A DNA stretch of 40,841 nucleotides from Halobacteriota archaeon (GTDB lineage: Archaea > Halobacteriota > Syntropharchaeia > DAOWMC01), in contig JAXHUQ010000003.1 in NCBI GenBank assembly GCA_034189535.1, forward strand, positions 1 to 40,841, in the 5' to 3' direction. The translations under genes were made by a program, and so were the position numbers. Within the stretch, counting starts at the first letter, position 1. Every line of letters begins with the position of its first letter. Of this stretch, positions 2,610 through 25,393 are shown in pieces. The notes under the pieces were generated by a model, which ran no database searches, had not been told where the DNA came from, and saw nothing but the letters and a program-made list of their open reading frames with translations.

Positions 2610-2613
2610 ATAA

Positions 2614-3396: not shown

Positions 3397-3412
3397 AGGC
3401 AGTTATAAAAGG

Positions 3413-10882: not shown

Positions 10883-11029
10883 CCTATATAATTATTGTAG
10901 GTCATGGTGCGGATTACACCAGGGTAAATTGCTTTATCAAAAGATATTGGTTTATACACCGGAAGAATTTGAGAATATGAAGGGTAAGAATCCATTTATA
11001 AAAGACGCAATCAAGAGGAGTAAAATTTT

Positions 11030-11386
11030 ATGAAAAAGGACAGCCATGAAGAGGCTGAAAGATGGATAAAACAGGCTGAGGTCGATTTTGCATCGTTAAG
11101 CCAACTTTTCAAGGTGAAGATCTATCATCTGGTCTGTTTTATGGCACAACAAGCAGCAGAGAAGGCTTTAAAAGCACATATCTATGCCCAGGGAGAAGAA
11201 CTGATTCTCACTCATTCAGTTGCAAAGTTGTGCAATGCGGCATCTGAATATGATGCATCATTTGAAGGATTGGGAAAGTCTGTTAAAAATCTCGATTCGT
11301 TCTATATCCAGGCCCGGTATCCAAACGGCATGATAGATGGGATTTTTGCTGAATTTTTTGAGAAAGAATTCACAGGATTTCTATAG
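11030..11386 (+). CDS. HEPN domain protein, probably C-terminally truncated; no MNT partner
   Basis: CFMAQQAAEKALKA, THSV and YIQARYP motifs; final helix missing. Confidence 0.8.
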   Translation: MKKDSHEEAERWIKQAEVDFASLSQLFKVKIYHLVCFMAQQAAEKALKAHIYAQGEELILTHSVAKLCNAASEYDASFEGLGKSVKNLDSFYIQARYPNGMIDGIFAEFFEKEFTGFL

Positions 11387-11482
11387 GTTTATATCTAAAA
11401 TAGAGGATTTTTTATAATATTGTGGCATTGTGGCGGGATGTGAACTGGTGATGTGTAGTTAAAGATATGGGTAAAAGAAAGG

Positions 11483-11554
11483 ATGAGAAAAATGACGGAT
11501 GGCAGGATTTCAGTGGTAATTCCGGTGAAAAATGAGGAGGAGTGGTATACATAA
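11483..11554 (+). pseudogene. Stranded N-terminus of a different GT2 glycosyltransferase
   Basis: MRKMTDGRISVVIPVKNEEEWYT* parallels ITVIVAVKNEE of the GT2 immediately downstream. Confidence 0.7.
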
Positions 11555-12558
11555 ACAACATCTTAATAACAGTCATTGTTGCAGTTAAAAACGAAGAAAG
11601 ATTCATTGAAAAATGTTTAATATCTTTAATAAATCAAGATTTTGCTCAAGATCTCTATCAAATAGTCGTTGTTGATGGAAGGTCAACCGATCGAACAATG
11701 GATATCGTAGAGGAATATATAAAAAAATACCCTGACCTTATCAAAGTATATGATAATCCAATGGAATGGCAAGCAGTTGGGAGAAATATTGCCATTCAAA
11801 ACGAGAAGGAAAGTGAATTAATCACATATTTAGATGGGCATTGCATAGCAGATTCACAATGGTTACGGACTTTGTTTAATGATTTTCAAGCACATGACAA
11901 CCCCAAATTTGCTGGTGTAGGGTCATTACATTTGAGCCCGGATGATGAATCCACTATTGGTAAATCTATTGAGCAAATATTCCATACTTTATTTGGAGGA
12001 ATTGGTTCATCCTTCAGACCTACAGTAATAAGGGGAGAGGTGGAAACAGTTCCTTTTGTATTGTTTAAAAGAGAAGCTTTAGAAGACGTGGGCCTATATG
12101 AAGAGGATATGAAGGTCGGAGAGGATTTTACCTTGAGTTATAAGCTGAGGAGTGCTGGTTATAAACTATTCATCAATCCTAAAGCCATTGTATATCGTTA
12201 TAATAGGAATTCCTTCTATTCTTTTCTTATTCAGATTTATAATTATGGAATAGCAAAGGCAATTAGTGGAAAGAAATTTCCACATTCTCTAAGTGTTTAT
12301 CACTATCTCCCTAGCGTTCTACTAATTTTTTTAGCGATTTTAGGGGTGTTAGGAGTATATTTGGTGGAATTAAGATTATTTTTTTACCGGATTGTTCTTC
12401 TATATGCTGGCGCCATATTAACTTCCTCTATAGTAACTGCTTTTAAAAAGGTGCAATGGACGTTCGCTATTATCATGCCATTATTATATGTTGTGGAACA
12501 TTTTTCCTATAGTATTGGATTTTTATTCGGGATTTTTAAAAAGGGGTGGAAAAGATGA
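11542..12558 (+). CDS. GT2 glycosyltransferase with C-terminal TM helices
   Basis: VIVAVKNEE, VVDGRSTDRT, LDGH and GED motifs. Confidence 0.9.
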   Translation: MVYINNILITVIVAVKNEERFIEKCLISLINQDFAQDLYQIVVVDGRSTDRTMDIVEEYIKKYPDLIKVYDNPMEWQAVGRNIAIQNEKESELITYLDGHCIADSQWLRTLFNDFQAHDNPKFAGVGSLHLSPDDESTIGKSIEQIFHTLFGGIGSSFRPTVIRGEVETVPFVLFKREALEDVGLYEEDMKVGEDFTLSYKLRSAGYKLFINPKAIVYRYNRNSFYSFLIQIYNYGIAKAISGKKFPHSLSVYHYLPSVLLIFLAILGVLGVYLVELRLFFYRIVLLYAGAILTSSIVTAFKKVQWTFAIIMPLLYVVEHFSYSIGFLFGIFKKGWKR

Positions 12559-14006
12559 AGGTATATTTGCTAAACCCTCCTTTTGTTAAAGGATTTAGTA
12601 GGGGTGTAAGAGGGGTTGGTGAAGCAACTCGCGGAGGGACTTTGTATTGCCCGATTTGGTTATCCTATGCAGCAGGTGTATTGGAACAAGAACACGAAGT
12701 TAAGTTGATAGATGCACAAGCAAGGCAGTGGTTAATCGAAGATGTTTTACAAGATTTAAATAGATTCGATCCAGATTTAATCGTTGTTGAGACTAATTTT
12801 TCAAGTTTGAATAATGACCTTGACATGGTAGATAAAATTAAGACTATATCAAACGCCGCTATTACTATGGTGGGCCCTCCCACTTCCCAATACTTTGAAA
12901 AAATTATAATTGGAAACGGTGTAGGTATTGTAGCAAGGCATGAGTATGATATTACTCTAAAAGAAGTTGCAAATGCGATTCGAAGCGGTACAAGTCTAAA
13001 AAAAATAAGGGGTATTTCTTATATTGAATGTGGTAAGGCGATTAACAATCCTGACAGAGAATATACCAACTCTGAAGATTTGGATGGAATGCCGTTCGTA
13101 TCAAAAACATATAAAAAACATCTCAACTTGAAGGATTACTTTTTAAGTTCTTCTCTTTATCCTACGATACAGATATTCACAGGGAGAGGGTGTCCAAATC
13201 AATGTACATTCTGTTCTTGGCCTGAGACTTTAATGGGAAGAAAGTACAGAGTCAGAAGTGTAGCGAATGTTTTGGATGAATTTGAATATATCGAAAATGA
13301 GCTTCCTGAAGTAAAAGAGATCTTCATTGAGGATGACACATTCACTATCAGTAAAAAGAGAGTTTTGGCGTTTTGCGAAGATTATAAGAAAAGAGGTTTA
13401 AACATAACCTGGTCATGCAACGCTAGGGCCAATTCACTGGATTTGGAAACGATGAAAGAGATGAAGAAGGCCAACTGCCGATTGCTTATCGTTGGATATG
13501 AATCGGGAAATGATGAGATCTTAATAAACATAAAAAAGGGCATAACATCTCAACACATAAGGGATTTTTCAAAAAATGCACGAAAAGCCGGATTGCTCGT
13601 ACATGGTGATTTTATAATTGGTTTACCAGGTGAGACAAATGAGACAATTATGGTTACAAAGAAAATGATACATGAGGTAAAACCCGATCTCTTACAAGTT
13701 CTGGTCCCCCAACCAGTCCCGGGAACACATCTTTATGATTGGTGTAAAGAACATAAATTTTTACTCACAGAGGATCCAAATGAGTATCTGGATGAAAATG
13801 GACATCAAAAGGCAATTATTTCTTATCCGGAACTTAGCAATGAAGAGATGGTAAAAGAGGTGGATGAAATATTGAAAAATTATTATATGAGTCCGTCTTA
13901 CATACCGCTAGCTATGAGGCAGGTGCTTAGGAAAAACGGATTGGACGAAGCGAGAAGACTCTGGTATTCTATGAGGATGTTTTTAGGTTATGTTGGGAGG
14001 AGGTGA
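12555..14006 (+). CDS. B12-binding-domain radical SAM protein, HpnJ-like
   Basis: LLNPP...PIWLSYAA N-terminus, GRGCPNQCTFC, EDDTFT, GYESG and DFIIGLPGET; ATGA overlap with GT2. Confidence 0.88.
   Translation: MKVYLLNPPFVKGFSRGVRGVGEATRGGTLYCPIWLSYAAGVLEQEHEVKLIDAQARQWLIEDVLQDLNRFDPDLIVVETNFSSLNNDLDMVDKIKTISNAAITMVGPPTSQYFEKIIIGNGVGIVARHEYDITLKEVANAIRSGTSLKKIRGISYIECGKAINNPDREYTNSEDLDGMPFVSKTYKKHLNLKDYFLSSSLYPTIQIFTGRGCPNQCTFCSWPETLMGRKYRVRSVANVLDEFEYIENELPEVKEIFIEDDTFTISKKRVLAFCEDYKKRGLNITWSCNARANSLDLETMKEMKKANCRLLIVGYESGNDEILINIKKGITSQHIRDFSKNARKAGLLVHGDFIIGLPGETNETIMVTKKMIHEVKPDLLQVLVPQPVPGTHLYDWCKEHKFLLTEDPNEYLDENGHQKAIISYPELSNEEMVKEVDEILKNYYMSPSYIPLAMRQVLRKNGLDEARRLWYSMRMFLGYVGRR
13890..14006 (+). 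repeat. Radical SAM 3' end, copy A (in use)
   Basis: Encodes SPSYIPLAMRQVLRKNGLDEARRLWYSMRMFLGYVGRR*. Confidence 0.95.
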
Positions 14007-14010
14007 AACA

Positions 14011-14235
14011 ATGGTAAGTATTGTAAGAATAAAAGAAGTTAAGGAGAATGTAGTGCTACGCAAAGAGGACTTTGAAAGTCTGATAGGGGAGATGGAATCT
14101 TTGATGGAGACCATAGAGATTTTAAGCGATAAGGATCTGATGGGACAGATAAAGAATAGTGAAAAAGATATTAAAGAAGGAAATGTCCTCGAAATAATGA
14201 CTGAGAGTGATATGAATAATTTGTTTGTGGAGTGA
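14011..14235 (+). CDS. Putative RelB/Phd-like antitoxin
   Basis: Small acidic protein with ESLMETIEILSDKDLMGQIK, directly upstream of RelE; RBS GGAGGAGGTGA. Confidence 0.8.
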   Translation: MVSIVRIKEVKENVVLRKEDFESLIGEMESLMETIEILSDKDLMGQIKNSEKDIKEGNVLEIMTESDMNNLFVE

Positions 14236-14239
14236 TCTT

Positions 14240-14548
14240 GTGAGATACAGCCTGAAGTACACCAAGACCTTCAAGAAACAGATTGATAGGCTGAAGAAGA
14301 AAGACAAAGCATTGATGGAAGAGTTGATGAAGAAGGTGAAGAAACTACAGGATGTACCGCATTCCGGAAAGCTCCTGAAATATCAACTCTCTTATTATAG
14401 GTATAGGTCTCTGCGAATAAAGAAAAAATATAGACTTGTTTATGTGGTAGATGAGAATGAAAACACGGTGATACTGGTTGCATTTGGACACAGAGAGGAA
14501 ATATATAAGCTCATGCTGTTGTCATTTGAAGAAGAACGGAAAGAGTGA
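14240..14548 (+). CDS. RelE/ParE-family toxin
   Basis: Basic protein with PHSGKLL, YRSLRI, YRLVY and FGHREEIY. Confidence 0.88.
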   Translation: MRYSLKYTKTFKKQIDRLKKKDKALMEELMKKVKKLQDVPHSGKLLKYQLSYYRYRSLRIKKKYRLVYVVDENENTVILVAFGHREEIYKLMLLSFEEERKE

Positions 14549-14591
14549 TGGTATGAATTATATAGGAACGGCGTTGAAGGAATACCGCCCA

Positions 14592-14708
14592 AGTCCGTCT
14601 TACATACCGTTAGCGATGAGGCAGGTATTTCGAAGGAATGGGTTGGATGAAGCTAGAAGGCTCTGGTATTCGATGAGAATGTTTTTGGGGTATGTTGGAG
14701 GGAGGTGA
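14592..14708 (+). repeat. Radical SAM 3' end, stranded copy B
   Basis: Encodes SPSYIPLAMRQVFRRNGLDEARRLWYSMRMFLGYVGGR*; 35/38 aa identical to copy A. Confidence 0.95.
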
Positions 14709-14713
14709 TTACA

Positions 14714-14953
14714 ATGGTAATAGAAGTAAAAGTTCCAAAAGAGATCGATCTGAAGATAAAGAGTGATAAGGACCTTGAAGGAATCATAAAGAGGAAGATA
14801 GAAATGGAGATCTTTAAAGAAATAAAAGGAGATATATTCCTCTCGATGCTCTTTGATAAACTCCTTGAAGAGAGTGAACTAACAGGTGGAGATGTTGATG
14901 AGATTGATCACAAGGTTAAGAAGGGCATCATGGAGAATCTGGGATGGAAATAG
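14714..14953 (+). CDS. Putative VapB-type antitoxin
   Basis: Small protein overlapping the PIN gene; RBS GGAGGTGA supplied by copy B. Confidence 0.7.
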   Translation: MVIEVKVPKEIDLKIKSDKDLEGIIKRKIEMEIFKEIKGDIFLSMLFDKLLEESELTGGDVDEIDHKVKKGIMENLGWK

Positions 14954-15369
14954 TCGCTGACACGAATGTGATAATTTCAGCGCTGTTAAGAGATGGACTG
15001 ACAAGAAAACTATTGCTCCTCGCTCCTTTTGACTTTTACACCGTGGCTTATTCAAAAATCGAGATAGAAACGCACAGAAATGAGCTTCTTAATAGATCCA
15101 AACTTGATGAGGAGGCTTTTCAGTACCTTATAGATTTAATTTTCAGTAAAATTTGTGTCGTGGAATCCAATGTTATCGAAGCTTACAGGAAGAAAGCTAT
15201 TGATGTCATGCGTGGTATAGATATTAGCGATTCCCCTTTCATCGCGTTGGCAATGCATTTAAATTGTTCAATATGGTCGAATGATAAGCATTTTAAAGAA
15301 CAAAATGTTGTCAAAGCATATACAACTAAAGAGATCATGGCGTTATTGGGGGAGGCTGCAGAAGAATGA
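14944..15369 (+). CDS. PIN-domain (VapC-type) toxin
   Basis: VADTNVIISAL, DISDSPFIALA and IWSNDKHF acidic motifs. Confidence 0.9.
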   Translation: MEIVADTNVIISALLRDGLTRKLLLLAPFDFYTVAYSKIEIETHRNELLNRSKLDEEAFQYLIDLIFSKICVVESNVIEAYRKKAIDVMRGIDISDSPFIALAMHLNCSIWSNDKHFKEQNVVKAYTTKEIMALLGEAAEE

Positions 15370-15476
15370 TATCGCTCGCTCAGAGGCAGGTGTTTAGGAG
15401 AAACGGGTTGGATGAATTAAAGATGCTCTGGTATTTGATGAGGATGTTTTTGGGGTATGTTGGACGTGTAAAATGA
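15366..15476 (+). repeat. Radical SAM 3' end, stranded copy C (36-aa mini-ORF)
   Basis: MISLAQRQVFRRNGLDELKMLWYLMRMFLGYVGRVK*; ATGA overlaps with the PIN stop and with the GT4 start. Confidence 0.92.
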
Positions 15477-16696
15477 AGATTTGTATGATATGTCCCGAAA
15501 TTGGGAACTCTGGAAATAATGCGTTTATAGGTGGACACACAAATAACGTAATTAGATTATCTAAAGCTTTGCATAATAGGGGGCATGAAATAACAATTAT
15601 TACGACCCCCCATCGCCATCCTGGCGATCAACCCAGCGAGGATTTAGAATGGGCCAAGGTAGTTTGTTTGCCTATCAATGGATCGTTTTCATCTATTGGA
15701 TTTGGGCTAGAATTTGCCTTAAAATCTTTTAACAAAATTCGAAAAATAAATGGAAAAAGTAAATTTGACATTATCCATGGTCATTCTGGATTTACAATGC
15801 CCGCGATTATAACAGGTATAACGAGTATGTTTTTAAATATCCCTTCAGTACACAGTGTTTATTGTCCGATACAGGTAAATAGCAAAAGTACTGTTAAGTT
15901 TTTATCAAATAATGCTTTATCAAGATTTTATTTTTTTCATATAGATAAGGTTATTGCAACGAGCGGATCTGTTTTGGAATCTCTTGTAAATGCAGGTATT
16001 GCTAAAGAAAAAATTGACCTTATACCTCCTTTGATTGGCAACAATTTTAATTCTTCTGTTTCTGGAGAAAAAATTAGAGAAGAGTTTAATATTTTACCGG
16101 AGCAAACCGTTGTAACGTTTGTGGGCAATTTATCAAAAATAAAAGGTATAGATATATTGATTGATTCTTTAAGCTACTTAAAAGAAGAATACCATGATAT
16201 AATGCTTTTAATGGTATTAAATCTACCTTTAAGTAAATATAATAATCCTGAAATATTGGAAGCGGATGCAGAATTGCTACCGGAAATCAAAAGAAAGATA
16301 AAATCATATGGATTGGAAGAAAATGTCATTCCGATTGGTTTGACCGAAAAGATGCCCCAAATCATGGCTGCAAGTGATATTTTCACAATGCCTTTTTTAA
16401 ACTTGGTGGGAGTTGCCGACCCGCCTATTTCCCTAATAGAAGCCATGGCTATCGGAAAACCAGTGATTGCGACTAAAGTGGGTAGTGTATCTAAACTCGT
16501 AAAACATAAAGTAAATGGTATACTAATTGATCCAGGAAGCTCAGTTGAATTGGCTGAAGGAATAAAATATCTTATTGAAAATGAAAAAGAATCAAAAGAG
16601 ATGGGTAAAAGAGGATCAAAAATGATTCACGATAATTTTGGAGATGCCACTATTATTAAGAAAATTGAGAATGTTTACGAGTCGGTAGGTGTTTAA
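15473..16696 (+). CDS. GT4 glycosyltransferase
   Basis: FVGNLSKIKGID and EAMAIGKPVIAT motifs. Confidence 0.92.
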   Translation: MKICMICPEIGNSGNNAFIGGHTNNVIRLSKALHNRGHEITIITTPHRHPGDQPSEDLEWAKVVCLPINGSFSSIGFGLEFALKSFNKIRKINGKSKFDIIHGHSGFTMPAIITGITSMFLNIPSVHSVYCPIQVNSKSTVKFLSNNALSRFYFFHIDKVIATSGSVLESLVNAGIAKEKIDLIPPLIGNNFNSSVSGEKIREEFNILPEQTVVTFVGNLSKIKGIDILIDSLSYLKEEYHDIMLLMVLNLPLSKYNNPEILEADAELLPEIKRKIKSYGLEENVIPIGLTEKMPQIMAASDIFTMPFLNLVGVADPPISLIEAMAIGKPVIATKVGSVSKLVKHKVNGILIDPGSSVELAEGIKYLIENEKESKEMGKRGSKMIHDNFGDATIIKKIENVYESVGV

Positions 16697-17291
16697 GATC
16701 ATAGTTACAATAGAAGGTGTCGATGGTTCCGGGAAAACGACACAAGCAACAATGCTTGTTGAGCGGTTGTTAGGAGAAGGACATAATGCTGTTTATATTA
16801 GGCCCATCTTTGTGTTATTAGGCCTTTTCAGGCGTGAAGAGTCCCCCATATCAGTAAGCCCTAGGAAAAATAGAACCAAAGATGACTCAGGTAAAAGTTC
16901 TGTTATATTTGGGGTTTTAGGGTATTTTTATGCACTTGTTTCGTATGTTGTCATTAGATTTCAGAGCAGGAATAAAATTGTTGTCTGCGACAGGTATTTT
17001 TATCAGTTCTTTTATGATCTGTTCGAGTCTTCAAGCGAAAATGTTGTAAAATTTTTCCCTAAGCCGGATATTGCATTTTTACTTAAAATGGACTTGGATA
17101 CATTGTATTCTCGTGTCAGCTCCTATGATGCAGAGGTGGATAAGAGTTATTATATCAAAGTAATCGGAATGTACTCAAAACTGGCAAGTAAATATGAATT
17201 CATTCAAATAGATGCAAAACTTGAAAAAGAGGCAATTAATGATGTGATCTTTGGACATTTGGCGAAAATGCTGGGGAGGACAAGCTTATGA
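16689..17291 (+). CDS. Thymidylate-kinase-like P-loop kinase
   Basis: EGVDGSGKTT, CDRY and PKPD motifs; glycan-locus context suggests it is not the housekeeping Tmk. Confidence 0.8.
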   Translation: MFKIIVTIEGVDGSGKTTQATMLVERLLGEGHNAVYIRPIFVLLGLFRREESPISVSPRKNRTKDDSGKSSVIFGVLGYFYALVSYVVIRFQSRNKIVVCDRYFYQFFYDLFESSSENVVKFFPKPDIAFLLKMDLDTLYSRVSSYDAEVDKSYYIKVIGMYSKLASKYEFIQIDAKLEKEAINDVIFGHLAKMLGRTSL

Positions 17292-18310: not shown

Positions 18311-18372
18311 ATTGAATATAATGCTATTATGCTCTCGTAATATTCATTGGGTTGGAAAAAAGGTGATCAGAA

Positions 18373-19566
18373 ATGAAAATAGCATATCATGTTGTACATT
18401 TTCCGTATGCTGACACATCTAGTCTTACTTATTCAGAATATGGTAAGAATTATCTTCATGGCGGAGCAGGCGTAGCAACGTATCATTTGGCACTAAATAT
18501 TGCAGAAAGAGGTCATGAAGTAGGGGTTTTTACTACTTCCACAATAGGTTCGAAAGAAAATTTTGAAAAATATGAGAACATAAATATTCATCGATATAAA
18601 ACAAACTTTAAAATAGGTGTAGGAAATATATCGATTAATTCATTCCGTGAACCATGGAAATATAAATTTGATGTTGTTCATGCACATTCAGGGAGCGTCT
18701 CTATTGCAGGTCTCACAGGTATTCAACATGCTAAAAAAAGGAACATACCGCTTGTACTTACATATCATGCCGACGCTCCAGAAAATTATGGTGGTTTTGT
18801 TAGAAGGATGGGTGTTTCCTTTTTTAACAAATACCTTATTGACCGAGTCCTTTCGTATGCAGAAGTCATAGTGTGTCCTTCCGAGTACTTTATAGATGAA
18901 TCAAGATTTTTAAAAGGGTATAAAGATAAAATTGTCACTATTCCTAACGGAGTGAAAATTAATAATTTTGATATCCCTTATTCAAAGAATGATTGTAGAA
19001 AAAAATTAGGTTTCGCACCTGACGAAAATATTGTTTTGTTTGTTGGTACCCTTGTTGACTATAAATGTCCTGATGTTTTAATCAAGGCGTTGACAAAAGT
19101 TGTAAAGAAAATTCCAAACGTAAAACTTGTTTTTGTTGGGGATGGAAAGATTAGAAACGATCTTGAATTATTGTCTAAGAAATTAATGGTTGACGACCAT
19201 ATCAAATTTGTTGGTTTTGTAGGGGATGTTTTTGAAAAGGCTTTATATTATAAATCTGCAGATGTTTTTGTACTTCCTTCTTTCGCAGAAGTTTTCCCAT
19301 TAGTGCTTTTAGAGGCTTCTGCTTCTAGTCTCCCGATGGTTGTTAGTGATTTGAAGACTCTTCAATGCATTATCGAAGATGGATTTAACGGTATTGTTGT
19401 AAAAAAAGGCAATGAAATAAGTCTTGCAGATGCCTTAATTCACATATTAGAAAACGAAGATACACGAGTGTTGATGGGAAAAAATGCAAGAAAAAAAGTT
19501 GAAAAATTTTCATGGGACGAAATTGCACAGAAGACTGAGAAAATTTATTATGAGGTGACCTCTTGA
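18373..19566 (+). CDS. GT4 glycosyltransferase
   Basis: IPNGV, LFVGTL and DVFVLPSFAEVFPLVLLEA. Confidence 0.92.
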   Translation: MKIAYHVVHFPYADTSSLTYSEYGKNYLHGGAGVATYHLALNIAERGHEVGVFTTSTIGSKENFEKYENINIHRYKTNFKIGVGNISINSFREPWKYKFDVVHAHSGSVSIAGLTGIQHAKKRNIPLVLTYHADAPENYGGFVRRMGVSFFNKYLIDRVLSYAEVIVCPSEYFIDESRFLKGYKDKIVTIPNGVKINNFDIPYSKNDCRKKLGFAPDENIVLFVGTLVDYKCPDVLIKALTKVVKKIPNVKLVFVGDGKIRNDLELLSKKLMVDDHIKFVGFVGDVFEKALYYKSADVFVLPSFAEVFPLVLLEASASSLPMVVSDLKTLQCIIEDGFNGIVVKKGNEISLADALIHILENEDTRVLMGKNARKKVEKFSWDEIAQKTEKIYYEVTS

Positions 19567-19578
19567 AGACTTTTTACG

Positions 19579-21777
19579 TTGGGTGGTATGCAAGTGTATA
19601 TTGAGCGGAGTTTTAATATAGAAAAAAAGACTTCTTCCTTGGTTTTTTTGTTGGTCTTATTTTCATTCATAACCATGGCCAAAGATCTGTTTCCTTTTCG
19701 ACCCGTTTTAGGGGTGATAGTATATTGTTTTCTATTTGGTTTTTTGTTTCTCTCGCTCTTGGATATTGAGGGAATCAATCTCACCAAAAAAATTATTTAT
19801 TCTTTGGGACTTAGCATATCATTTCTAATGCTTTTTGGGTATATAATTGATCAGATCTACTATTTCCTTGGGTATAAGACTCCACTCTCTACAATATCTC
19901 TATCTTTCAGCTTTAGTATTATTTTACTCGCAATGATCACTATATTGTATTATAAAAAAAATATTGGTTTAACCTCGCCTTCATTTAAATTTTGTCTAAC
20001 TGCTATTGAGAAAGCCCTATTATCTTTCTCATTTCTCCTTCCAGCAATTAGCATATATGGTATATGGGTTATGAACACTTTGAATGATAATATTTTTATT
20101 ATGCTATTATATTCCATGATTGCGTTATTGGTCGTGATTATTACACTGCTTAACGAGCGAATTCCAGAAAGATTGTACCCTTTGATAATCTACTCAATTA
20201 GCCTTTCTCTTGTTCTACCTTTCGCTCTACGGTCTAACTATATTATGGGTGATGATGTACACTATTCATTTTATTTATTTAAAAACACCTATGCGAATAT
20301 GCACTGGACCGTTCTTGAACCTTCACCATTATCAGCTTGTTTGAGTGTTACATTATTACCAACTATTTTTAAATCTTTGTTAAATATCGAGGACCAGTAT
20401 GTTTTCAAGTTATTATATCCTTTACTATTTTCTTTTGTCCCTTTAGTTGTTTACGAGTTATCCAAAAACCACATTAGAGTAGATTATGCGTTTCTCGCAT
20501 CTTTCTTTTTTATGTCACAACAAGTCTTTTTATGGGCTTTATATCAGGCACGAACCGCTATTGCCATTTTTTTCTTTGCACTTTCAATTCTCGTTATTTT
20601 TGATAGTCAAATTGATGACATGAAGAAAAAAGTTTTATTTTTTATCTTTCTGTTTTCGGTGATAATCTCACATTACTCTACTACTTATATTTATCATTTC
20701 ATCTTAATTACTGTAGTTACTATATCATATGCATTAAATAGAACGCACAACTCCACAATTAAACTGATTAAAAAAAGAATATCTTTAACAACTTTACTCC
20801 TTTTCTCCGTCGCAACGTTTCTATGGTTTGGTCAGATTACTACAAGTGGTTTTACAAGCGGCACAAGGTTTGTCTTTGACACAATCAGAGAATTAAATAG
20901 TATCTTCCTTATCGAGTCTAGATCTCAAAGTGTTCAAACTTTTTTTGGGTACCAAATTATACAAAGGGGTATTCCTTATGTGATAGAACTTGTCCTAACA
21001 TGGGTAATACTAATAACTATTGTAATTGGATTCTTATATATTCTTAAGCATTTTATACAGGGCAGTCTCAACTCAAATAAACAAGGAAAAAAAATTATTA
21101 ATGGGGTAATCAGCACGGAATATTTTGCCTTAGTATTTGGTTGCGTTGGTTTACTTTTCCTCTTCGTTACACTACCATTTGTTTCGGAAGGTTATGGAAT
21201 GACTAGAATTTTTTCTCAAGTTAGTGTCATTTTGTCAACTGTTTTCATATTCGGGACACTAGTATTGTCAGAAAAAATAAAGGTTAAACCCATAATACTC
21301 ATGATGCTGATAATATTACCCAACTTTCTAAGTATTACAGGAGTTACTTACCAAGTTTTTGGAGATCCCCGTCAAATTGTATTAAATTCTGAGGGGGATC
21401 TCTATGATACTTATTACATTTATGATACCGAATATGCTTCTGGGCAATGGTATGGCTTATATTCATCATATGATACAAAAGTATATACGGATTCTTCTGG
21501 CGCCGAGATCTCTTCTGCCATTGGTAGCAGAATCAGATCGGGACCTATAGGAGACAATGAAAAATATTTGACATACTATTTTAAAATTTTGCCTTTCTCA
21601 GAGGATGCATTTGAACACTTGGATGGTTACGTCTATCTACGATATGTTAATGTTATATCAAAAAAATTCGAAATCAAAAAAATTGGATACGAGGATTTTT
21701 CGAGTAACTATTCTAAGCTTCAGGTAAATTCAGATAAAATATACGCCAACGGCGGCAGCGAAATCTATTATAGGTAG
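19579..21777 (+). CDS. Large polytopic membrane protein, DUF2206-like (GT-C-like)
   Basis: Many TM helices; GDDVH, ACLSVTLLP, SHYST and KIYANGGSEIY motifs. Confidence 0.75.
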   Translation: MGGMQVYIERSFNIEKKTSSLVFLLVLFSFITMAKDLFPFRPVLGVIVYCFLFGFLFLSLLDIEGINLTKKIIYSLGLSISFLMLFGYIIDQIYYFLGYKTPLSTISLSFSFSIILLAMITILYYKKNIGLTSPSFKFCLTAIEKALLSFSFLLPAISIYGIWVMNTLNDNIFIMLLYSMIALLVVIITLLNERIPERLYPLIIYSISLSLVLPFALRSNYIMGDDVHYSFYLFKNTYANMHWTVLEPSPLSACLSVTLLPTIFKSLLNIEDQYVFKLLYPLLFSFVPLVVYELSKNHIRVDYAFLASFFFMSQQVFLWALYQARTAIAIFFFALSILVIFDSQIDDMKKKVLFFIFLFSVIISHYSTTYIYHFILITVVTISYALNRTHNSTIKLIKKRISLTTLLLFSVATFLWFGQITTSGFTSGTRFVFDTIRELNSIFLIESRSQSVQTFFGYQIIQRGIPYVIELVLTWVILITIVIGFLYILKHFIQGSLNSNKQGKKIINGVISTEYFALVFGCVGLLFLFVTLPFVSEGYGMTRIFSQVSVILSTVFIFGTLVLSEKIKVKPIILMMLIILPNFLSITGVTYQVFGDPRQIVLNSEGDLYDTYYIYDTEYASGQWYGLYSSYDTKVYTDSSGAEISSAIGSRIRSGPIGDNEKYLTYYFKILPFSEDAFEHLDGYVYLRYVNVISKKFEIKKIGYEDFSSNYSKLQVNSDKIYANGGSEIYYR

Positions 21778-21790
21778 TTGATCGGTATCC

Positions 21791-23065
21791 TTACCCTTGA
21801 CCATTATCCATATTACTCATTACCCAACCCATCCCAACTCCACTTGCTATGGCCACGTTACCAATAATCCAAGAATATCCTACTCCAATTATACCCATAC
21901 TTTGCATCAACAGGTAACTTGCCACCAGAGTTATAATTGCAACCCCCCCATAGACATAGATCACAGGCATCACCTCTTTTTGAACTCGTTTTGTCGTTAC
22001 ATAAATTACATTAATCGCAAAAGGTATGCTTCCCAAAGCAAGAACTAGTAACAACTCGTATGAATTCGTTGCATACTCTTCACCGAAGAATCCCAGGATA
22101 TTTCTTCCAAACAAAAATATTCCAATTATTGCTGGCCCAAGTAACAGAAATATGAATTTTAATGCCCTTTTAGTATTGGCACTTAGAGTCTCTTCATTAT
22201 GAGATCCTTCAGCAAGCAAGGAGATAGTAGTCCATCTTGGGATTGTGAGTAACAACATGGAAATTTGCCAAGACATAAAGAAATATGCATTCATTTCCGC
22301 CCCTAAAACATTTATCACCATAATGGGTAACACAAAAACGGGAAGATATTCGAATATTTTTGCAAAATAATTACCAAATGAAAAATGAAAAATATCTTTG
22401 ATAATCTCTATATTTACTGTTGGAATCGGTTTATATGGGAAAATCCTTGATGCTAAAAAGATTCCGAACCCAAAAGCAAGAATTGGAGTTAATCCATACG
22501 GGGCATAAATCCCCAATTCTCCGAATGTTACCAGGAAAGGAATGATTCCCAACCTTGCAAGCGTTACAAGTGTTTGAAATAATGAATATTCAGTTCTTCT
22601 AAATCCGGCAAAAACACCCTGACTTAGCAAACCAGGCAAAGATGTGGTAGCTGAAAAAAATACAAAAAAGAATAAGAAAAATTTATTTTCCCTTATGACG
22701 CTCAATGAAGGCGACCATATGTTTATCCCTGCTACAAATATTAAAGTCAGTATAAGCGATATTATAAATGATATTGTGAGGCACGTGTTAATCAGTTCGG
22801 ATTTATCTTCTCTTTCCGGTAAGAATCTAACAAGTGCAATGTCAAACCCTAATACCGAGAAAATTGAAATTAAACCCATTGCAGAGATAATCGCAGAAGC
22901 AAGTCCTACATCTTCAGTGGAGTAAAATCTTGCAGCGATGATCCAGAAGAAAAAACCAGAACCAGCATTGGTCAAGGATGACATCATCAAAAATATCGAG
23001 TTCCTATACAACGGATCCCTCAAATGCCCCTTCAGCTCTTTTATGCTTGGTATTTTCAGTTTCAT
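21791..23065 (-). CDS. Oligosaccharide flippase (Wzx/MOP family)
   Basis: LYRNSIFL, GFFFWIIAARFY and VRFLP; about 12 TM helices. Confidence 0.88.
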   Translation of the reverse strand: MKLKIPSIKELKGHLRDPLYRNSIFLMMSSLTNAGSGFFFWIIAARFYSTEDVGLASAIISAMGLISIFSVLGFDIALVRFLPEREDKSELINTCLTISFIISLILTLIFVAGINIWSPSLSVIRENKFFLFFFVFFSATTSLPGLLSQGVFAGFRRTEYSLFQTLVTLARLGIIPFLVTFGELGIYAPYGLTPILAFGFGIFLASRIFPYKPIPTVNIEIIKDIFHFSFGNYFAKIFEYLPVFVLPIMVINVLGAEMNAYFFMSWQISMLLLTIPRWTTISLLAEGSHNEETLSANTKRALKFIFLLLGPAIIGIFLFGRNILGFFGEEYATNSYELLLVLALGSIPFAINVIYVTTKRVQKEVMPVIYVYGGVAIITLVASYLLMQSMGIIGVGYSWIIGNVAIASGVGMGWVMSNMDNGQG

Positions 23066-23073
23066 ATTGATAT
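22987..23073 (-). repeat. Flippase 5' end, copy 1 (in use)
   Basis: MKLKIPSIKELKGHLRDPLYRNSIFL plus upstream ATATCAAT. Confidence 0.95.
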
Positions 23074-23205
23074 TCCGTAAAGCGTAATCAATGATTCGTA
23101 ATGCGTGATCAGTGATTAGTAAAGTGTAAAGCGTGATCAGTAAAACGGGATGTGTTACCCATTACCCTTCACGCATAACTCATTACCCGTTTCACCCATC
23201 ACCTG
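23074..23205. repeat. Inverted heptamer array 1 (long imperfect hairpin)
   Basis: About 10-11 units NNNGTRA (tccgtaa agcgtaa tcaatga ttcgtaa tgcgtga...), spacer tgtg, then about 7 units TYACNNN (ttaccca ttaccct tcacgca taactca...). Confidence 0.9.
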
Positions 23206-23565
23206 TTAATGTTTTCCCTTTTGATGCTTTATCAGGCCGAGTAACATTCTTCTTATTCTTTCAATGCTTCCGTTCATGTCCTCGGTTTCCAGGAACCCTA
23301 ATTCTTTCGATAATTGCAACTGTGTTTCTAATTCGGCAAGAGAGCCCAACGATACATAAAGGAATTGAATGAATTCCTTGTTTGAATTTCTCGCTGCACC
23401 TTCAGCTATATTACTCGGAATTGATACTGATGCCCGTCTTATTTGAGATACCAATCCATAAGTCTCTTCTTTGGGGAACTCTGCTGTTACTATGTATATC
23501 TCTTTTGCCAGGGCCATTGCCTCTTTCCAAACATCAAGATCCTTGTGTGTTTTAATTCCACTCAT
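23206..23565 (-). CDS. Four-helix-bundle protein (23S rRNA IVP-like family)
   Basis: HKDLDVWK, FPKEETYGLVSQIRRASVSIPSNIAEG and GSLAELETQL. Confidence 0.93.
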   Translation of the reverse strand: MSGIKTHKDLDVWKEAMALAKEIYIVTAEFPKEETYGLVSQIRRASVSIPSNIAEGAARNSNKEFIQFLYVSLGSLAELETQLQLSKELGFLETEDMNGSIERIRRMLLGLIKHQKGKH

Positions 23566-23617
23566 AACTCATTACTCTTCACGCATTACCCATTACTCGT
23601 TACTCATTCATCACTTA
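23565..23617. repeat. Direct heptamer array upstream of the four-helix-bundle gene
   Basis: taactca ttactct tcacgca ttaccca ttactcg ttactca ... tcactta. Confidence 0.88.
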
Positions 23618-23842
23618 TATCTTTTCAATGATGGATAGGTATTCATCCCTTGTCATACCAACTGTTTTCATATTATTTCTTATGATGGTGACAGGAACTT
23701 CATCGTACTTTGGAATGACTACGGCTCTTTTTGCGTTTTGGTGATGGAATATCATATGGTCCCCTTTCTGCCTTACGAATTTGCAACCATATTTCTCGAA
23801 GATTTTAACCTGTGTTTTCCAGTTTGTGGGTTTGATCTTCAT
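23615..23842 (-). CDS. hicA: HicA-family toxin
   Basis: YGCKFVRQKGDHMIF and VVIP motifs. Confidence 0.88.
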   Translation of the reverse strand: MKIKPTNWKTQVKIFEKYGCKFVRQKGDHMIFHHQNAKRAVVIPKYDEVPVTIIRNNMKTVGMTRDEYLSIIEKI

Positions 23843-24120
23843 TACAGAACTCCAACCGAGATCGATAGCTCCTCAAATCCCACTATCTTCTTCTCAGTTT
23901 TAAGCACCCCATCCTCTAAAACATAACCAGCTTCTGCCAAAAAATCTTTCAATGTGCCAAGTTTGGCTGTCTCTTCAAATTGTATTTGAATAACCTCTTC
24001 CAGATTCTTTTTTGCCTCTTCGTGTGTGTGACCACAACTTGCGATATCCAATTCCGGACAGTAGGCAGTAAACATCCCTCCCTCCTTCCATATCTCAACC
24101 GTGGCAATTATATTTTTCAT
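23842..24120 (-). CDS. hicB: HicB-family antitoxin
   Basis: AYCPELDIASCGHTHEEAKKNLEE; TAATG coupling to hicA. Confidence 0.88.
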   Translation of the reverse strand: MKNIIATVEIWKEGGMFTAYCPELDIASCGHTHEEAKKNLEEVIQIQFEETAKLGTLKDFLAEAGYVLEDGVLKTEKKIVGFEELSISVGVL

Positions 24121-24184
24121 CGGATATCCCTCACACTTTATTAGTAAAGATACTATATTGTAACTTTCGCATCATCTATTTGTC

Positions 24185-24271
24185 TCAAAAATATCGAGTT
24201 CTTATACAAAGGATCCCTCAAATGCATCCTCAGCTCGTTTATGCTTGGTATTTTTAGTTTCATATTGATAT
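24185..24271 (-). repeat. Flippase 5' end, stranded copy 2
   Basis: MKLKIPSINELRMHLRDPLYKNSIFL then unrelated RQIDDAKVTI*; same upstream ATATCAAT as copy 1. Confidence 0.95.
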
Positions 24272-24365
24272 TCCGTGATGCGTAATCCGTAAACCGTGAT
24301 CGTTGATGCATAATGTGTTACCCATTACTCGTCACCCATAACTCATTACCAATTACTTGTTATCC
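24272..24365. repeat. Inverted heptamer array 2
   Basis: tccgtga tgcgtaa tccgtaa accgtga tcgttga tgcataa tgtg ttaccca ttactcg tcaccca taactca ttaccaa ttacttg. Confidence 0.9.
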
Positions 24366-24366
24366 T

Positions 24367-24624
24367 TTACTTATAAGCTCTCCTTCTAGGTAAAATAGCA
24401 TAAATTACAATAACATAACCCTCTTGAAGTTCAAAAAGAACCCGATATTCTCGCACCCTCAAACGATAATGGTTCTTATATCCTTTTAACTTCCTTATAT
24501 CAAGCTCAGGAGAAAAACCGCTCTTAAGTTTGGTTATCTTGTCCTTTATCACACCACTTATGCTTGGATCTAAACCGTCTAACTGTTTTTGCGCCTTTCT
24601 TTCGAGAAATACCTTATATTTCAT
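24367..24624 (-). CDS. RelE/ParE-family toxin
   Basis: DIRKLKGYKNHYRLRVREYRVLF and PRRRAY. Confidence 0.9.
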   Translation of the reverse strand: MKYKVFLERKAQKQLDGLDPSISGVIKDKITKLKSGFSPELDIRKLKGYKNHYRLRVREYRVLFELQEGYVIVIYAILPRRRAYK

Positions 24625-24778
24625 TCAGTTCAATCTTTTTATTGCTCTTTCTATCTTCGTAATCCTCTATTTCTTTAATTTCATCTTCTTCAGGCTCTTC
24701 TATACCTATCAATCTTGAATCGATTATCCCTTCAATCTTCTCAAGCATAAGTTTTATCTCGGTTACTTCTTTACTCAT
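24614..24778 (-). CDS. Putative antitoxin, 54 aa (not in the ORF track)
   Basis: MSKEVTEIKLMLEKIEGIIDSRLIGIEEPEEDEIKEIEDYEDRKSNKKIELNEI*; acidic, GGTGA RBS, overlaps relE start. Confidence 0.8.
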   Translation of the reverse strand: MSKEVTEIKLMLEKIEGIIDSRLIGIEEPEEDEIKEIEDYEDRKSNKKIELNEI

Positions 24779-24817
24779 TTCACCCATATTTATACCAAAT
24801 ATTACATTAGGTTGTTT

Positions 24818-24832
24818 GTATTTAACCTTTTA
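24818..24832 (-). promoter_or_regulatory. BRE/TATA promoter of the RelBE cassette
   Basis: AAAAGGTTAAATA on the minus strand, about 40 bp before the antitoxin ATG. Confidence 0.6.
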
Positions 24833-24858
24833 TCTCAAGATCGTTACTTGCTTTATTT

Positions 24859-24902
24859 AAATGCCCCCTAATCTCTTTTATGCTTGGTATTTTTAGTTTC
24901 AT
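24859..24902 (-). repeat. Flippase 5' end, stranded copy 3
   Basis: MKLKIPSIKEIRGHL then unrelated NKASNDLEIKG*; GGGGAG RBS upstream. Confidence 0.92.
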
Positions 24903-24916
24903 TTCTCCCCAACAGA

Positions 24917-25162
24917 TCAGATCTTCTTTTTACGGTAGAAAAGGTCAATATACTCCTCATTTGTGAGGCCTGCTCTTGTAATGAGCTTCTTAAGAAGCCC
25001 TACACCAAGTGTTTTACCTTTGTGCACTGGTATGGACAGGTGAATATCACAATCTTCTTTCACCAGGATATAATAACTCCCTTCAACATGGTTCACTTTT
25101 TAACCTTCTTTTTTAAAAGTGGCGATATGTTTATCCCCACTCGCCCTTGGGAGTTTAGGCAT
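24917..25162 (-). pseudogene. hicA: HicA toxin pseudogene
   Basis: MPKLPRASGDKHIATFKKEG*KVNHVEGSYYIL...SIPVHKGKTLGVGLLKKLI; in-frame TAA at 25100-25102 and GSH motif changed to GSY. Confidence 0.85.
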
Positions 25163-25180
25163 GTGTTGTTCCGGTGATAT

Positions 25181-25393
25181 CTACTGATATGTCGAGTTTA
25201 TGCTGAAAGGAGGGGATTTTAGATGTTCTCCTACTTCCCTCAGCCTTGATCTTAAACAACCGACAATCGCTTCGTTTATATTCTCGATCGCCTCTTCAAG
25301 ATTTTCTCCTTCTGAAAGACAGCCCGGAAGGTCGGCGCATTCGACCACATACCGCCCATCTTCATCGATCTCAATTGTGATACGAAATTCCAT
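25181..25393 (-). CDS. hicB: HicB-family antitoxin (short)
   Basis: EDGRYVVECADLPGCLSEGENLEEAIENINEAI. Confidence 0.88.
   Translation of the reverse strand: MEFRITIEIDEDGRYVVECADLPGCLSEGENLEEAIENINEAIVGCLRSRLREVGEHLKSPPFSINSTYQ

What the first reader, a model, noticed from the sequence alone, without database searches (positions are those of the whole stretch)
11030..25393. Candidate new system: target-regenerating toxin-antitoxin cassette accretion at gene termini of a glycosylation island
Seen: five TA pairs, a lone HEPN and a four-helix-bundle gene sit in arrays where neighbouring cassettes are separated by a 45-120 bp stranded copy of the end of the adjacent host gene. The same architecture occurs independently at a 3' end (radical SAM) and at a 5' end (flippase), and the host gene is intact each time. 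No integrase, transposase or attC/IR pair is associated. Inference: each incoming unit is [TA module + terminus of a homologous target gene] and inserts by crossover within that terminus. This restores the gene and pushes the old terminus outward, giving an integron-like chronological array whose attachment sites are coding termini. A single crossover with a small circle, or homology-facilitated illegitimate recombination, would give exactly this layout. TA genes in glycan loci are common, but I do not know a named mechanism for this terminus-duplication pattern.
Basis: partly seen in the sequence, partly recalled or inferred. Interest (0 to 1): 0.88.

Follow-up and report, generated by a model that had tools for sequence, protein, structure and literature searches.

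The report
Toxin-antitoxin cassettes between copied gene ends
In an archaeal sugar-coat gene cluster, small toxin-antitoxin gene pairs have piled up beside two genes, each pair bounded by a spare copy of that gene's end, and comparison with other genomes indicates that these spare copies act as homology handles by which ordinary recombination moves the pairs.

Summary
The core observation is real. The last ~100-150 nt of a radical-SAM gene occur three times (13890-14017, 14562-14720, 15369-15473) with two TA pairs between them. The first ~45-155 nt of a flippase gene also occur three times, with three TA pairs and a four-helix-bundle gene between them. The lone HEPN has no such flank.

The pattern recurs. 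Extra copies of the same radical-SAM terminus ("T") bound TA cassettes in 6 of the 13 class genomes with a T match (79 searched). They also do so in a Methanoperedenaceae (GoM-Arc1) genome and in metagenome contigs. Other gene ends are hit too: a GT2 5' end in this genome and a type IIG methylase 3' end in a relative.

T copies are not in-situ duplicates. They differ from the working terminus mostly at synonymous sites, some belong to a different allele type than the resident gene, and some are chimeras. The same cassette-T junction is shared across orders.

The best reading is that cassettes carry a terminus copy and spread or shuffle by homologous recombination within it, after a rare illegitimate founding event. 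No integrase or hairpin site is involved.

The closest precedent is "insertion with long target duplication" of restriction-modification genes. I file this as a new variant of a known kind.

The parts
9941..10882 (+). GT2 glycosyltransferase (island context)
   Evidence: Pfam Glycos_transf_2, E 2e-23
10863..11033 (+). 56-aa ORF, possible 5'-truncated nucleotidyltransferase (MNT) remnant
   Evidence: ORF; no Pfam hit. The MNT reading rests only on its position before HEPN and on C-terminal likeness by eye.
11030..11386 (+). HEPN gene, not flanked by terminus copies
   Evidence: Pfam HEPN, E 2e-23; no repeat around it
11542..12558 (+). GT2 glycosyltransferase
   Evidence: Pfam. The 95 nt upstream (11447-11541) are 96% identical to L025 although the genes differ.
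12546..14006 (+). B12-binding radical-SAM gene, intact host gene of the 3' array
   Evidence: Pfam Radical_SAM + B12-binding; orthologues align over residues 2-486
13890..14017 (+). T1: terminus copy inside the working gene; ends in GGAGGTGA (stop plus Shine-Dalgarno-like motif for the next ORF)
13990..14235 (+). Small ORF, presumed antitoxin of cassette 1 (likely start ATG 14011)
   Evidence: ORF; no Pfam hit; homologue precedes ParE in L027
14225..14548 (+). ParE-family toxin, cassette 1
   Evidence: Pfam ParE_toxin, E 1e-13
14562..14720 (+). T2: terminus fragment (residues 439-486). Chimera of a B-type 5' part and an A-type 3' part.
14705..14953 (+). Small ORF, presumed antitoxin of cassette 2 (likely start ATG 14714)
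   Evidence: ORF; no Pfam hit; homologue in L020 581-820
14944..15369 (+). PIN_2 toxin, cassette 2
   Evidence: Pfam PIN_2, E 1e-27
15369..15473 (+). T3: terminus fragment (residues 453-485) abutting the GT1 start codon
15473..16696 (+). GT1 glycosyltransferase, the original downstream neighbour
   Evidence: Pfam
21791..23065 (-). Polysaccharide flippase-type gene, intact host gene of the 5' array
   Evidence: Pfam Polysacc_synt; 83% nt identity to G001:C74 orthologue
22987..23127 (-). F1: working 5' end of the flippase plus 62 nt upstream
23066..23205 (.). Heptamer-repeat tract upstream of the flippase ATG (two opposed arms)
23206..23565 (-). Four-helix-bundle gene (23S_rRNA_IVP family) inserted in the heptamer tract with a ~35-nt duplication
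   Evidence: Pfam PF05635, E 1e-39; repeat family D2
23566..23614 (.). Duplicated piece of the heptamer tract
23615..23842 (-). HicA toxin
   Evidence: Pfam HicA_toxin, E 2e-13
23842..24120 (-). HicB-like antitoxin (weak Pfam support)
   Evidence: UPF0150-like/DUF7387 at E 0.007; position upstream of HicA
24185..24339 (-). F2: copy of the flippase 5' end (26 codons) plus the upstream heptamer tract
   Evidence: 89% identical to G001's working 5' end
24367..24624 (-). ParE/RelE-family toxin
   Evidence: Pfam ParE_toxin, E 6e-7
24614..24787 (-). Small ORF, presumed antitoxin
   Evidence: ORF; no Pfam hit
24859..24902 (-). F3: copy of the flippase start (ATG plus about 14 codons)
24917..25162 (-). 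HicA toxin gene broken by an in-frame TAA (25100-25102)
   Evidence: sequence read; Pfam HicA on the 3' part
25181..25393 (-). HicB antitoxin
   Evidence: Pfam HicB_lk_antitox, E 2e-10

Best explanation
The arrays are built from TA cassettes that each travel with a copy of a conserved gene terminus.

Founding step (inferred). A rare illegitimate event places a TA pair exactly between two tightly packed genes and duplicates the boundary. This could be homology-facilitated illegitimate recombination or 'insertion with long target duplication'. The upstream gene keeps its end and the downstream gene keeps the GGAGGTGA ribosome site that lies inside that end.

Spread (crossover products shown, process inferred). 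The flanking terminus copies then serve as portable homology arms. Host homologous recombination within them can do three things:
- move a cassette into any genome that has the same gene;
- add further cassettes, giving arrays;
- reshuffle cassettes or swap the downstream gene.

Retention (inferred). Cassettes that are addictive (TA) resist loss, so they are what remains between the repeats. Outer copies and old toxins decay (shown: HicA with an in-frame stop, RelE fragment, MNT without partner).

No dedicated recombinase is needed.
For: 1. Recurrence.
- T-only copies bound cassettes in G000, G001, G025, G031, G041 and G071. That is 6 of the 13 class genomes with a T match, out of 79 searched (maps).
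- The same holds in L027, a 1.92-Mb GoM-Arc1 record.
- 12 of 61 metagenome loci have two or more T hits. Three of these are not true extra copies: two are paralogues and one is a single copy split in two.

2. Presence/absence. G065 (same genus) has radical-SAM directly followed by a methyltransferase. G025 has radical-SAM, UPF0175 + PIN-like, a T fragment, then the methyltransferase.

3. The fragments are foreign.
- The G025 fragment is 78.0% identical to its own terminus, 78.5% to G065, but 87.0% to G024 and 86.5% to G041.
- L027's resident T is type A, while the fragment behind its ParE cassette is type B.
- L044 and L019 also mix the two types.

4. Differences are mostly synonymous. dN/dS is 0.05 for T1-T2 (48 codons, pS 0.74) and 0.07 for G025 gene vs fragment (72 codons, pS 0.71).

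5. Shared junction with mosaic ends.
- Window 14000-14708 matches L027 9348-10047 at 81.6%. The match runs from GAGGTGA.ACAATG through ParE into the first ~60 nt of the fragment, then drops.
- The window's T2 continues as type A.
- The last 100 nt of G025's terminus plus its cassette are 91.5% identical to G041 2781-3776.
- L025 is 54-57 of 60 identical per block over the last 240 columns, against 31-37 of 60 in the first 540.
- The apparent crossover points differ: roughly -290, -100, -85 and -25 nt from the stop.

6. Shuffling. The UPF0175(97 aa) cassette lies before ParDE in L035 and after ParDE + MNT in L027. T3 is followed by GT1 in the window and by a sulfatase-type start in G001.

7. 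Other targets.
- GT2 5' end on G000:C48.
- Eco57I-type methylase 3' end, three copies on G062:C194 with HicAB between.

8. Cassette content. 15 of 17 gene-bearing inter-T intervals in 9 arrays hold TA-type genes. The other two hold a sulfatase, and GT1 + epimerase.

9. No recombinase signature.
- No PF00589 match on the window's contig.
- T does not fold: z from -1.07 to +0.71 on six strands.
- No tRNA or Rfam match.
Against: - No recombination intermediate (circle or loop-out) was seen. The only runs available are contigs, which break inside T and show no joints.
- Cassette limits are very tight, from the ribosome site to the toxin stop. This is what a site-specific system would give. Under my model it needs later trimming or selection.
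- The founding event is not observed.
- T copies within one array are only 68-85% identical. Recombination between them may be too rare for 'addiction prevents loop-out' to matter.
- The route is a minority one. Only 3 of 26 full-length metagenome loci have a true extra T. Only 4 of 30 HicA loci have bracketing repeats, against 10 of 300 random G000 windows, and only one of those four is a gene terminus.
- Fragment conservation at the protein level could also reflect selection on the fragment itself.
- All genomes are MAGs. Claims at contig level hold, but assignments to organisms may not. L025 carries a bacterial bin title.
Confidence: 0.62

Rival explanations
1. An integron-like or integrase-driven site-specific system. 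A recombinase encoded elsewhere recognises the terminus as an attachment site and inserts circular cassettes that carry their own att copy.
For: - Ordered arrays of tight, single-module cassettes, each followed by a repeat of 45-200 nt.
- Cassette order can differ between arrays.
- Integrons are reported in Archaea, and TA cassettes are common in chromosomal integrons (PMC9668308 and PMC13108822; search listings and abstract starts only).
- G000 has tyrosine recombinase genes on other contigs.
Against: - No integrase in the window or in the other arrays mapped.
- T has no hairpin potential.
- At least four unrelated sequences are used as the repeat: radical-SAM 3', flippase 5', GT2 5' and methylase 3'.
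- The apparent crossover points inside T differ between cases.
- The repeat is a genuine coding terminus, conserved in orthologues without cassettes.
Confidence: 0.12
2. In-situ partial or whole-gene tandem duplication followed by decay, with TA genes landing later in the dead copies.
For: - Some fragments are long: 142 residues in L035 and 104 residues for GT2 on C48.
- G031 keeps a GT2-5'::radical-SAM-3' fusion that is a deletion remnant of whole genes.
- L027's first fragment has dN/dS 0.51 against the resident gene.
Against: - Fragments belong to other allele types than the resident gene, or are chimeras.
- dN/dS is 0.05-0.07 with near-saturated synonymous change.
- The same toxin-to-fragment junction occurs in different orders.
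- The empty site in G065 shows a clean gene-gene boundary.
Confidence: 0.06
3. The terminus copy is kept because it is a functional expression adaptor for whatever gene follows (ribosome site, possibly an internal promoter). Its spread reflects selection for expression, not a role in recombination. This does not exclude the best explanation.
For: - Every T copy ends in, or close to, GGAGGTGA followed a few bases later by the next ATG.
- A GT1-5'(31 codons)::T(residue 446 to end) junction stands in front of different genes in L059, L087, L089, L090 and L091.
- Non-TA genes (sulfatase, GT1 + epimerase) are also bounded by T.
Against: - 100-200 nt is far more than a ribosome site needs.
- 5'-type arrays (flippase, GT2) duplicate the start of the downstream gene instead.
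- No transcript data: no RNA holder is listed (see Tried and rejected).
- It does not explain the mosaic alleles.
Confidence: 0.12
4. Assembly artefact: strain variants of one locus chained into a false array.
For: - The genome is a fragmented MAG (194 contigs).
- Contigs of public runs break inside T, and T joins several contexts in run X3.
Against: - An independent contig of a congener carries ParE-T2-antitoxin-PIN-T3 at 97.6% identity.
- Run X2 contigs bridge each cassette to both flanks: 13963-14687 and 14672-15406.
- The same layout stands in a 1.92-Mb record (L027) and in many unrelated contigs.
Confidence: 0.03

Closest known systems
Insertion with long target duplication of restriction-modification units (Nobusato et al. 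2000, cited in Furuta et al. 2010, PMC2853133; passages read)
   Same: - A small addictive gene unit without mobility genes is flanked by direct repeats of over 30 bp (46-423 bp there).
- The repeats correspond to one copy in an empty-site genome.
- The repeats often span a start or stop codon, so the target gene stays intact.
- The authors hypothesised a life cycle of insertion, then amplification or release via the repeats.
   Different: - Here the cargo is TA pairs, not RM genes. The word 'toxin' does not occur in that paper.
- The hosts here are archaea. That paper states that no archaeal case survived its screen.
- Insertions here are serial, giving arrays of up to five repeats.
- The repeats here are diverged (68-85%) mosaics of different alleles, not near-identical copies.
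- The same cassette-plus-repeat junction is shared across orders, which points to recombination in the repeat as the means of spread.
Integrons, including archaeal integrons and TA cassettes in chromosomal integrons (PMC9668308, PMC13108822; search listings and abstract starts only)
   Same: - Arrays of compact cassettes, each followed by a repeat.
- Cassette order varies between arrays.
- TA modules are frequent cargo.
   Different: - No IntI-type integrase nearby.
- The repeat is a coding terminus without attC-like folding.
- Several unrelated 'sites' are used.
Integrase-borne islands and prophages that regenerate the 3' end of a tRNA or protein gene and leave the displaced end as a fragment (recalled knowledge; tRNA cases are mentioned in PMC2853133)
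   Same: The target gene is restored by a copy carried on the incoming DNA. Tandem accretion leaves a row of end fragments.
   Different: Those elements encode or borrow a tyrosine recombinase and cross over at a fixed core. Here the units are 0.6-1 kb with TA genes only, and the breakpoints vary.
TA operons in insertion/deletion structural variants of ANME-1 strains (PMC13385816; section 8 and term search read)
   Same: Same group of archaea. hicAB, parE and other TA operons are described as variable insertions and partial deletions, with horizontal transfer inferred.
   Different: The main text does not mention homologous recombination, glycosyl genes, radical SAM, integrase or flanking terminus repeats (0 occurrences each). 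Its supplements could not be read.
Minimal mobile elements of Neisseria (recalled, no call)
   Same: Cassettes are exchanged by homologous recombination in conserved flanks, without mobility genes.
   Different: There the flanks are two different whole genes and nothing is duplicated. Here the homology is a duplicated terminus carried with the cassette.

Membership tests
Insertion with long target duplication | Insert flanked by direct repeats >30 bp that match a single-copy target in an empty-site genome | tested here: met
   G025 (occupied) vs G065 (empty): G065 1811-2009 matches both G025 repeats. For the flippase, G001:C74 has a single 5' end and no cassettes, but its upstream synteny differs.
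Insertion with long target duplication | No transposase or integrase in the insert; insert <20 kb | tested here: met
   Inserts of 0.6-1 kb with TA-type Pfam hits only. PF00589 is absent from the window's contig.
Insertion with long target duplication | Cargo is a restriction-modification unit (as defined in the 2010 screen) | tested here: not met
   Cargo is TA pairs. In G062:C194 the target, not the cargo, is an Eco57I-type methylase.
Insertion with long target duplication | The two repeats are near-identical products of one duplication | tested here: not met
   Repeats are 68-85% identical and of different allele types.
Integron | Integron integrase next to the array | tested here: not met
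   No PF00589 match on C118. None among the ORFs mapped around arrays in other loci; those were not all scanned with Pfam.
Integron | attC sites that fold as imperfect hairpins in single-stranded DNA | tested here: not met
   Six strands of T1-T3 folded as DNA: z from -1.07 to +0.71 against shuffles.
Integrase-mediated island at a gene end | Crossover at one fixed core within the repeated segment | tested here: inconclusive
   Apparent breakpoints at about -290, -100, -85 and -25 nt. These come from four comparisons only, and later gene conversion could blur them.
Type II toxin-antitoxin modules (the cargo) | Toxin domain plus a small adjacent, often overlapping, partner ORF | tested here: met
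   ParE, PIN_2, HicA x2 (one broken) and a ParE-family toxin, with upstream small ORFs overlapping by 1-11 nt. Three partner ORFs have no Pfam hit.
Type II toxin-antitoxin modules (the cargo) | Toxicity neutralised by the partner | not testable with these tools
   No experiment was done. ANME-1 hicAB activity in E. coli is reported in PMC13385816 (abstract) for other loci.

The most novel reading that the evidence does not exclude
An integrase-free counterpart of an integron. In these archaea a conserved gene terminus works as a portable, self-propagating homology arm.
- TA cassettes that carry it can enter any genome holding the target gene.
- They stack into arrays, are reshuffled, and cross between orders (a Methanophagales-related class and GoM-Arc1).
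- The same junction is also used to swap downstream glycan-modifying genes (sulfatase, glycosyltransferases, methyltransferase).
- The terminus would thus be a general module junction for combinatorial evolution of surface-glycan operons, held in place by TA addiction.
Probability: 0.4. Interest if true: 0.8.

Novelty: new variant of a known kind. Interest (0 to 1): 0.62.

Why it matters
How chromosomal TA modules move without transposases or integrases is largely unexplained. So is how 'insertion with long target duplication' works. These arrays give a natural series of the same event at one site, in several lineages. The series includes empty sites, mosaic repeats and shared junctions, so the recombination steps can be read from sequence.

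If the homology-arm reading holds, it would be a simple route by which selfish modules, and with them glycan-modifying genes, spread among uncultured methane- and alkane-oxidising archaea. It would also explain why assemblies of these genomes break at such loci, and it offers a design principle for marker insertion in archaea.

Tried and rejected
- Self-BLAST of the whole MAG for local direct repeats gave 145 pairs. Of the 19 I mapped, only the two window arrays and C48 have this architecture.
- Two look-alikes were rejected. C110 19632/20030 is a broken NifX-like paralogue. C155 is a tandem set of small peptide genes.
- HicA survey: 4 of 30 loci had bracketing repeats. L101 is a 49-nt intergenic repeat, L102 looks like MITE copies, and L107 is a 300-nt repeat of unknown kind. 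Only L119 is a gene terminus.
- tRNA scan of those four loci found none. Rfam on the window and L101 found none.
- Viral-contig scan for T: 63 pattern matches, none confirmed.
- Sequencing runs: no RNA holder listed.
- Four DNA runs were laid as contigs. There were no joints, and no piece spans the whole stretch. Parts without cover say nothing.
- PF05635 occurs once in the genome, so the four-helix-bundle gene is not a multicopy element here.
- The continuation of contig C48 was not found in the MAG.
- Literature searches that found no description of this pattern: (0 papers for the last). Supplements were closed. Those of PMC13385816 and PMC2853133 may hold relevant cases.
- I did not use structure prediction, complex prediction, or either large protein-database search. 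No claim needed them.

Full report
WHAT IS THERE.

The window is contig C118 of a 1.82-Mb, 194-contig MAG with 42% G+C. Positions 9.9-23 kb hold a glycan-synthesis cluster:
- GT2, GT2, B12-binding radical-SAM;
- GT1, a thymidylate-kinase-like gene, NTP_transf_5, GT1;
- a DUF2206 membrane protein and a Polysacc_synt flippase.

The last part of the radical-SAM gene (here 'T') occurs three times:
- T1 at 13890-14017, inside the working gene.
- T2 at 14562-14720, covering residues 439-486 (83.7% over 129 nt, E 2e-30).
- T3 at 15369-15473, covering residues 453-485 (80% over 95 nt, E 9e-16). T3 ends at the ATG of GT1.

Between the copies lie a small ORF + ParE and a small ORF + PIN_2. Each T ends in, or near, GGAGGTGA followed a few bases later by the next ATG.

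On the other strand, the first 26 and 14 codons of the flippase recur upstream of it. The longer copy also includes the ~60-100 nt before the ATG.
- F2 at 24185-24339 (83%, E 9e-35).
- F3 at 24859-24902 (91%, E 1e-8).
- Between and beyond them lie HicB-like/HicA, a small ORF + ParE-family toxin, and HicB/HicA.

- The HEPN gene has no terminus copy around it.
- The PF05635 four-helix-bundle gene is bracketed by a ~35-nt duplication of a heptamer-repeat tract, not by coding sequence.
- The outermost HicA carries an in-frame TAA at 25100-25102.

IS IT AN ARTEFACT?

- A contig of a congener (G001:C222, 2085 nt) carries ParE-T2-antitoxin-PIN-T3 at 97.6% identity.
- Contigs of a second public run bridge each cassette to both flanks: 13963-14687 and 14672-15406.
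- The same layout stands in a 1.92-Mb record (L027).

No single public contig spans a whole array, because assemblies break inside T. Long reads are therefore still wanted.

RECURRENCE.

I searched the C-terminal 72 residues in all 79 genomes of the class. 13 genomes have a match.
- Nine hold a full-length gene: G000, G021, G024, G025, G032, G062, G065, G068 and G071.
- T-only extra copies occur in six: G000 (2), G001 (2), G025 (1), G031 (5), G041 (2) and G071 (1). G071 has one more copy fused to a sulfatase 5' fragment.

Record titles of related named loci read Methanophagales, Methanosarcinales, Halobacteriota, Ca. Methanoperedenaceae GB37 (GoM-Arc1), Altiarchaeales and others. The host is therefore an archaeon of an ANME-1-related class (inference).

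L027 (GoM-Arc1) reads as follows:
- GT2, radical-SAM;
- [UPF0175 + 156 aa], T;
- [small ORF + ParE], T;
- [MNT + HepT pieces], T remnant;
- [UPF0175], methyltransferase, GT.

Of 61 metagenome loci, 12 have two or more T hits. Two of these are paralogues and one is a split single copy. Of 26 loci with the full gene and at least 1 kb downstream, 4 have a further T hit, one of which is a paralogue. Five near-identical pairs were not removed. Most sites are therefore empty.

In nine arrays I annotated, 17 intervals between T copies hold genes. 15 hold TA-type genes: ParE, PIN, UPF0175 with DUF3368/PIN-like partners, MNT/HepT, RelB/RelE, TumE, HicAB, AF2212-like + PIN, and DUF433. Two hold other genes: a sulfatase, and GT1 + epimerase. 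Some partner ORFs have no Pfam hit.

OTHER TARGETS.

- G000:C48. A 104-codon GT2 5' fragment, then a DUF4258 toxin + zinc-finger ORF, then the GT2 start again (46 nt, 95.7%, up to the contig end).
- G062:C194. The 3' end of an Eco57I-type methylase occurs three times, with a 498-aa ORF and [153 aa + HicB + HicA] between the copies.
- HicA survey. Of 30 HicA loci sampled across the class, 4 had bracketing direct repeats of at least 35 nt, against 10 of 300 random 3.2-kb windows of G000. The 10 include this window itself. Only one of the four is a gene terminus.

The pattern is therefore general in kind, but a minority route.

HOW THE COPIES AROSE.

In-situ duplication followed by decay is contradicted.

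1. The G025 fragment is 78.0% identical to G025's own terminus and 78.5% to the empty-site relative G065. It is 87.0% identical to G024 and 86.5% to a G041 fragment. Only its last ~25 nt and the following methyltransferase are G065-like.

2. T peptides fall into two types: A (...DEARRLW...) and B (...LHELKGM...). L027's resident gene is type A, but the fragment behind its ParE cassette is type B. L044 and L019 also mix types. The window's T2 starts like the B-type, cassette-borne fragment and ends like the resident A type.

3. Gene-versus-fragment differences are mostly synonymous. dN/dS is 0.05 for T1-T2 and 0.07 for G025, with pS about 0.7. The copies therefore diverged as working gene ends in different lineages. 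One older fragment (L027 f1) gives 0.51.

4. The ParE cassette is 81.6% identical between the window and L027 over 713 nt. The match runs from the ribosome site through the toxin and ~60 nt into the fragment, which starts at residue 439 in both. The neighbouring radical-SAM 3' region is only 70% identical.

5. L025 has a radical-SAM gene only 68.7% identical in protein to the window's. Its last 240 alignment columns are 54-57 of 60 identical, and it continues into the same cassette. The first 540 columns are 31-37 of 60 identical.

6. The last 100 nt of G025's terminus plus its cassette are 91.5% identical to a T fragment + cassette in G041.

The switch points differ between these cases: about -290, -100, -85 and -25 nt from the stop.

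In addition, cassette order differs between L035 and L027. The gene after T3 also differs between the window (GT1) and its congener (a sulfatase-type start).

MECHANISM.

These facts fit homologous recombination within a terminus copy that travels with the cassette. The form could be a double crossover of a T-cassette-T segment, or a single crossover of a looped-out circle. I could not distinguish the two.

The first linkage of a cassette to a terminus must have been illegitimate (inferred).
- Because the genes abut, only insertions that duplicate the boundary keep both genes working.
- The ribosome-site motif at the end of T offers microhomology with the start of any cassette.

Retention of TA cargo by addiction is inferred from cargo counts alone. 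It is weakened by the low identity (68-85%) between copies within an array.

Against a site-specific system:
- no integrase on the contig;
- no hairpin in T;
- several unrelated target sequences;
- scattered breakpoints.

In its favour are the very tight cassette limits. I give it 0.12.

COMPARISON WITH WHAT IS KNOWN.

The nearest precedent is 'insertion with long target duplication' of restriction-modification units. There, direct repeats of 46-423 bp often span a start or stop codon, so the target gene stays intact. The units carry no mobility genes, and a repeat-mediated life cycle was hypothesised. No archaeal case passed that screen, and TA genes are not discussed (PMC2853133, passages read).

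A 2026 paper reports TA operons in insertion/deletion variants of ANME-1 strains. Its main text does not mention flanking terminus repeats, recombination or glycan genes (PMC13385816). Supplements were not readable.

Integrons, including archaeal ones, resemble this in layout only.

I therefore file it as a new variant of a known kind. What is new: TA cargo, archaeal hosts, serial arrays, and sequence evidence that the duplicated terminus acts as a portable homology arm shared across orders.

LIMITS.

- All genomes are MAGs or metagenome contigs.
- No intermediates or transcripts were seen.
- Breakpoints rest on a handful of pairwise comparisons.
- The claim that this is not in print rests on four text searches without supplements.

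Noticed in passing
window 23066-23205, 23566-23614, 24264-24366; L025 142-324: Heptamer-type repeat tracts with two opposed arms (units like GGGTAAT and ATTACGC) sit just upstream of the flippase ATG and of its F2 copy. The PF05635 four-helix-bundle gene is inserted in one arm with a ~35-nt duplication. Similar tracts gave short hits in 7 other genomes of the class.
   Followed up: partly
L059, L087, L089, L090, L091 (metagenome loci): A recurrent fusion of the first 31 codons of a GT1 gene to the radical-SAM terminus from residue 446 onward stands in front of different downstream genes. It looks like a scar of module replacement at the same junction.
   Followed up: partly
L025 (2791-nt named contig, bacterial bin title): It carries an archaeal-type GT2/radical-SAM pair whose last ~240-290 nt and following cassette start are about 93% identical to the window. 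It is probably mis-binned (inference). It also shares 95 nt upstream of GT2 (window 11447-11541) at 96%.
   Followed up: partly
G000:C155 7400-8300: Five tandem small ORFs share a leader (M.LKLEVKKLE.RETK-like), each behind GGAGGTGA. This may be a precursor-peptide array.
   Followed up: no
L013 (G031:C50) 2569-2914: The N-terminal ~45 codons of a GT2 gene are fused to radical-SAM residues 419-486. The original host genes were deleted internally while the cassette array survived. A second, 38%-identical GT2/radical-SAM pair lies downstream, before GT1.
   Followed up: partly
L024 (G001:C74) 662-3665: In the congener the flippase is preceded by PAPS_reduct-domain and EF-Tu-type GTPase genes (sulfate-activation-like) and a phosphodiesterase-like ORF, instead of TA cassettes. 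Together with the sulfatase behind T3 in that genome, this hints at sulfated glycans.
   Followed up: no
window 7752-9733: A run of short ORFs without Pfam hits, plus one weak HSDR_N fragment (E 3e-4), lies at the left edge of the glycan cluster. These may be gene remnants marking the island border.
   Followed up: no
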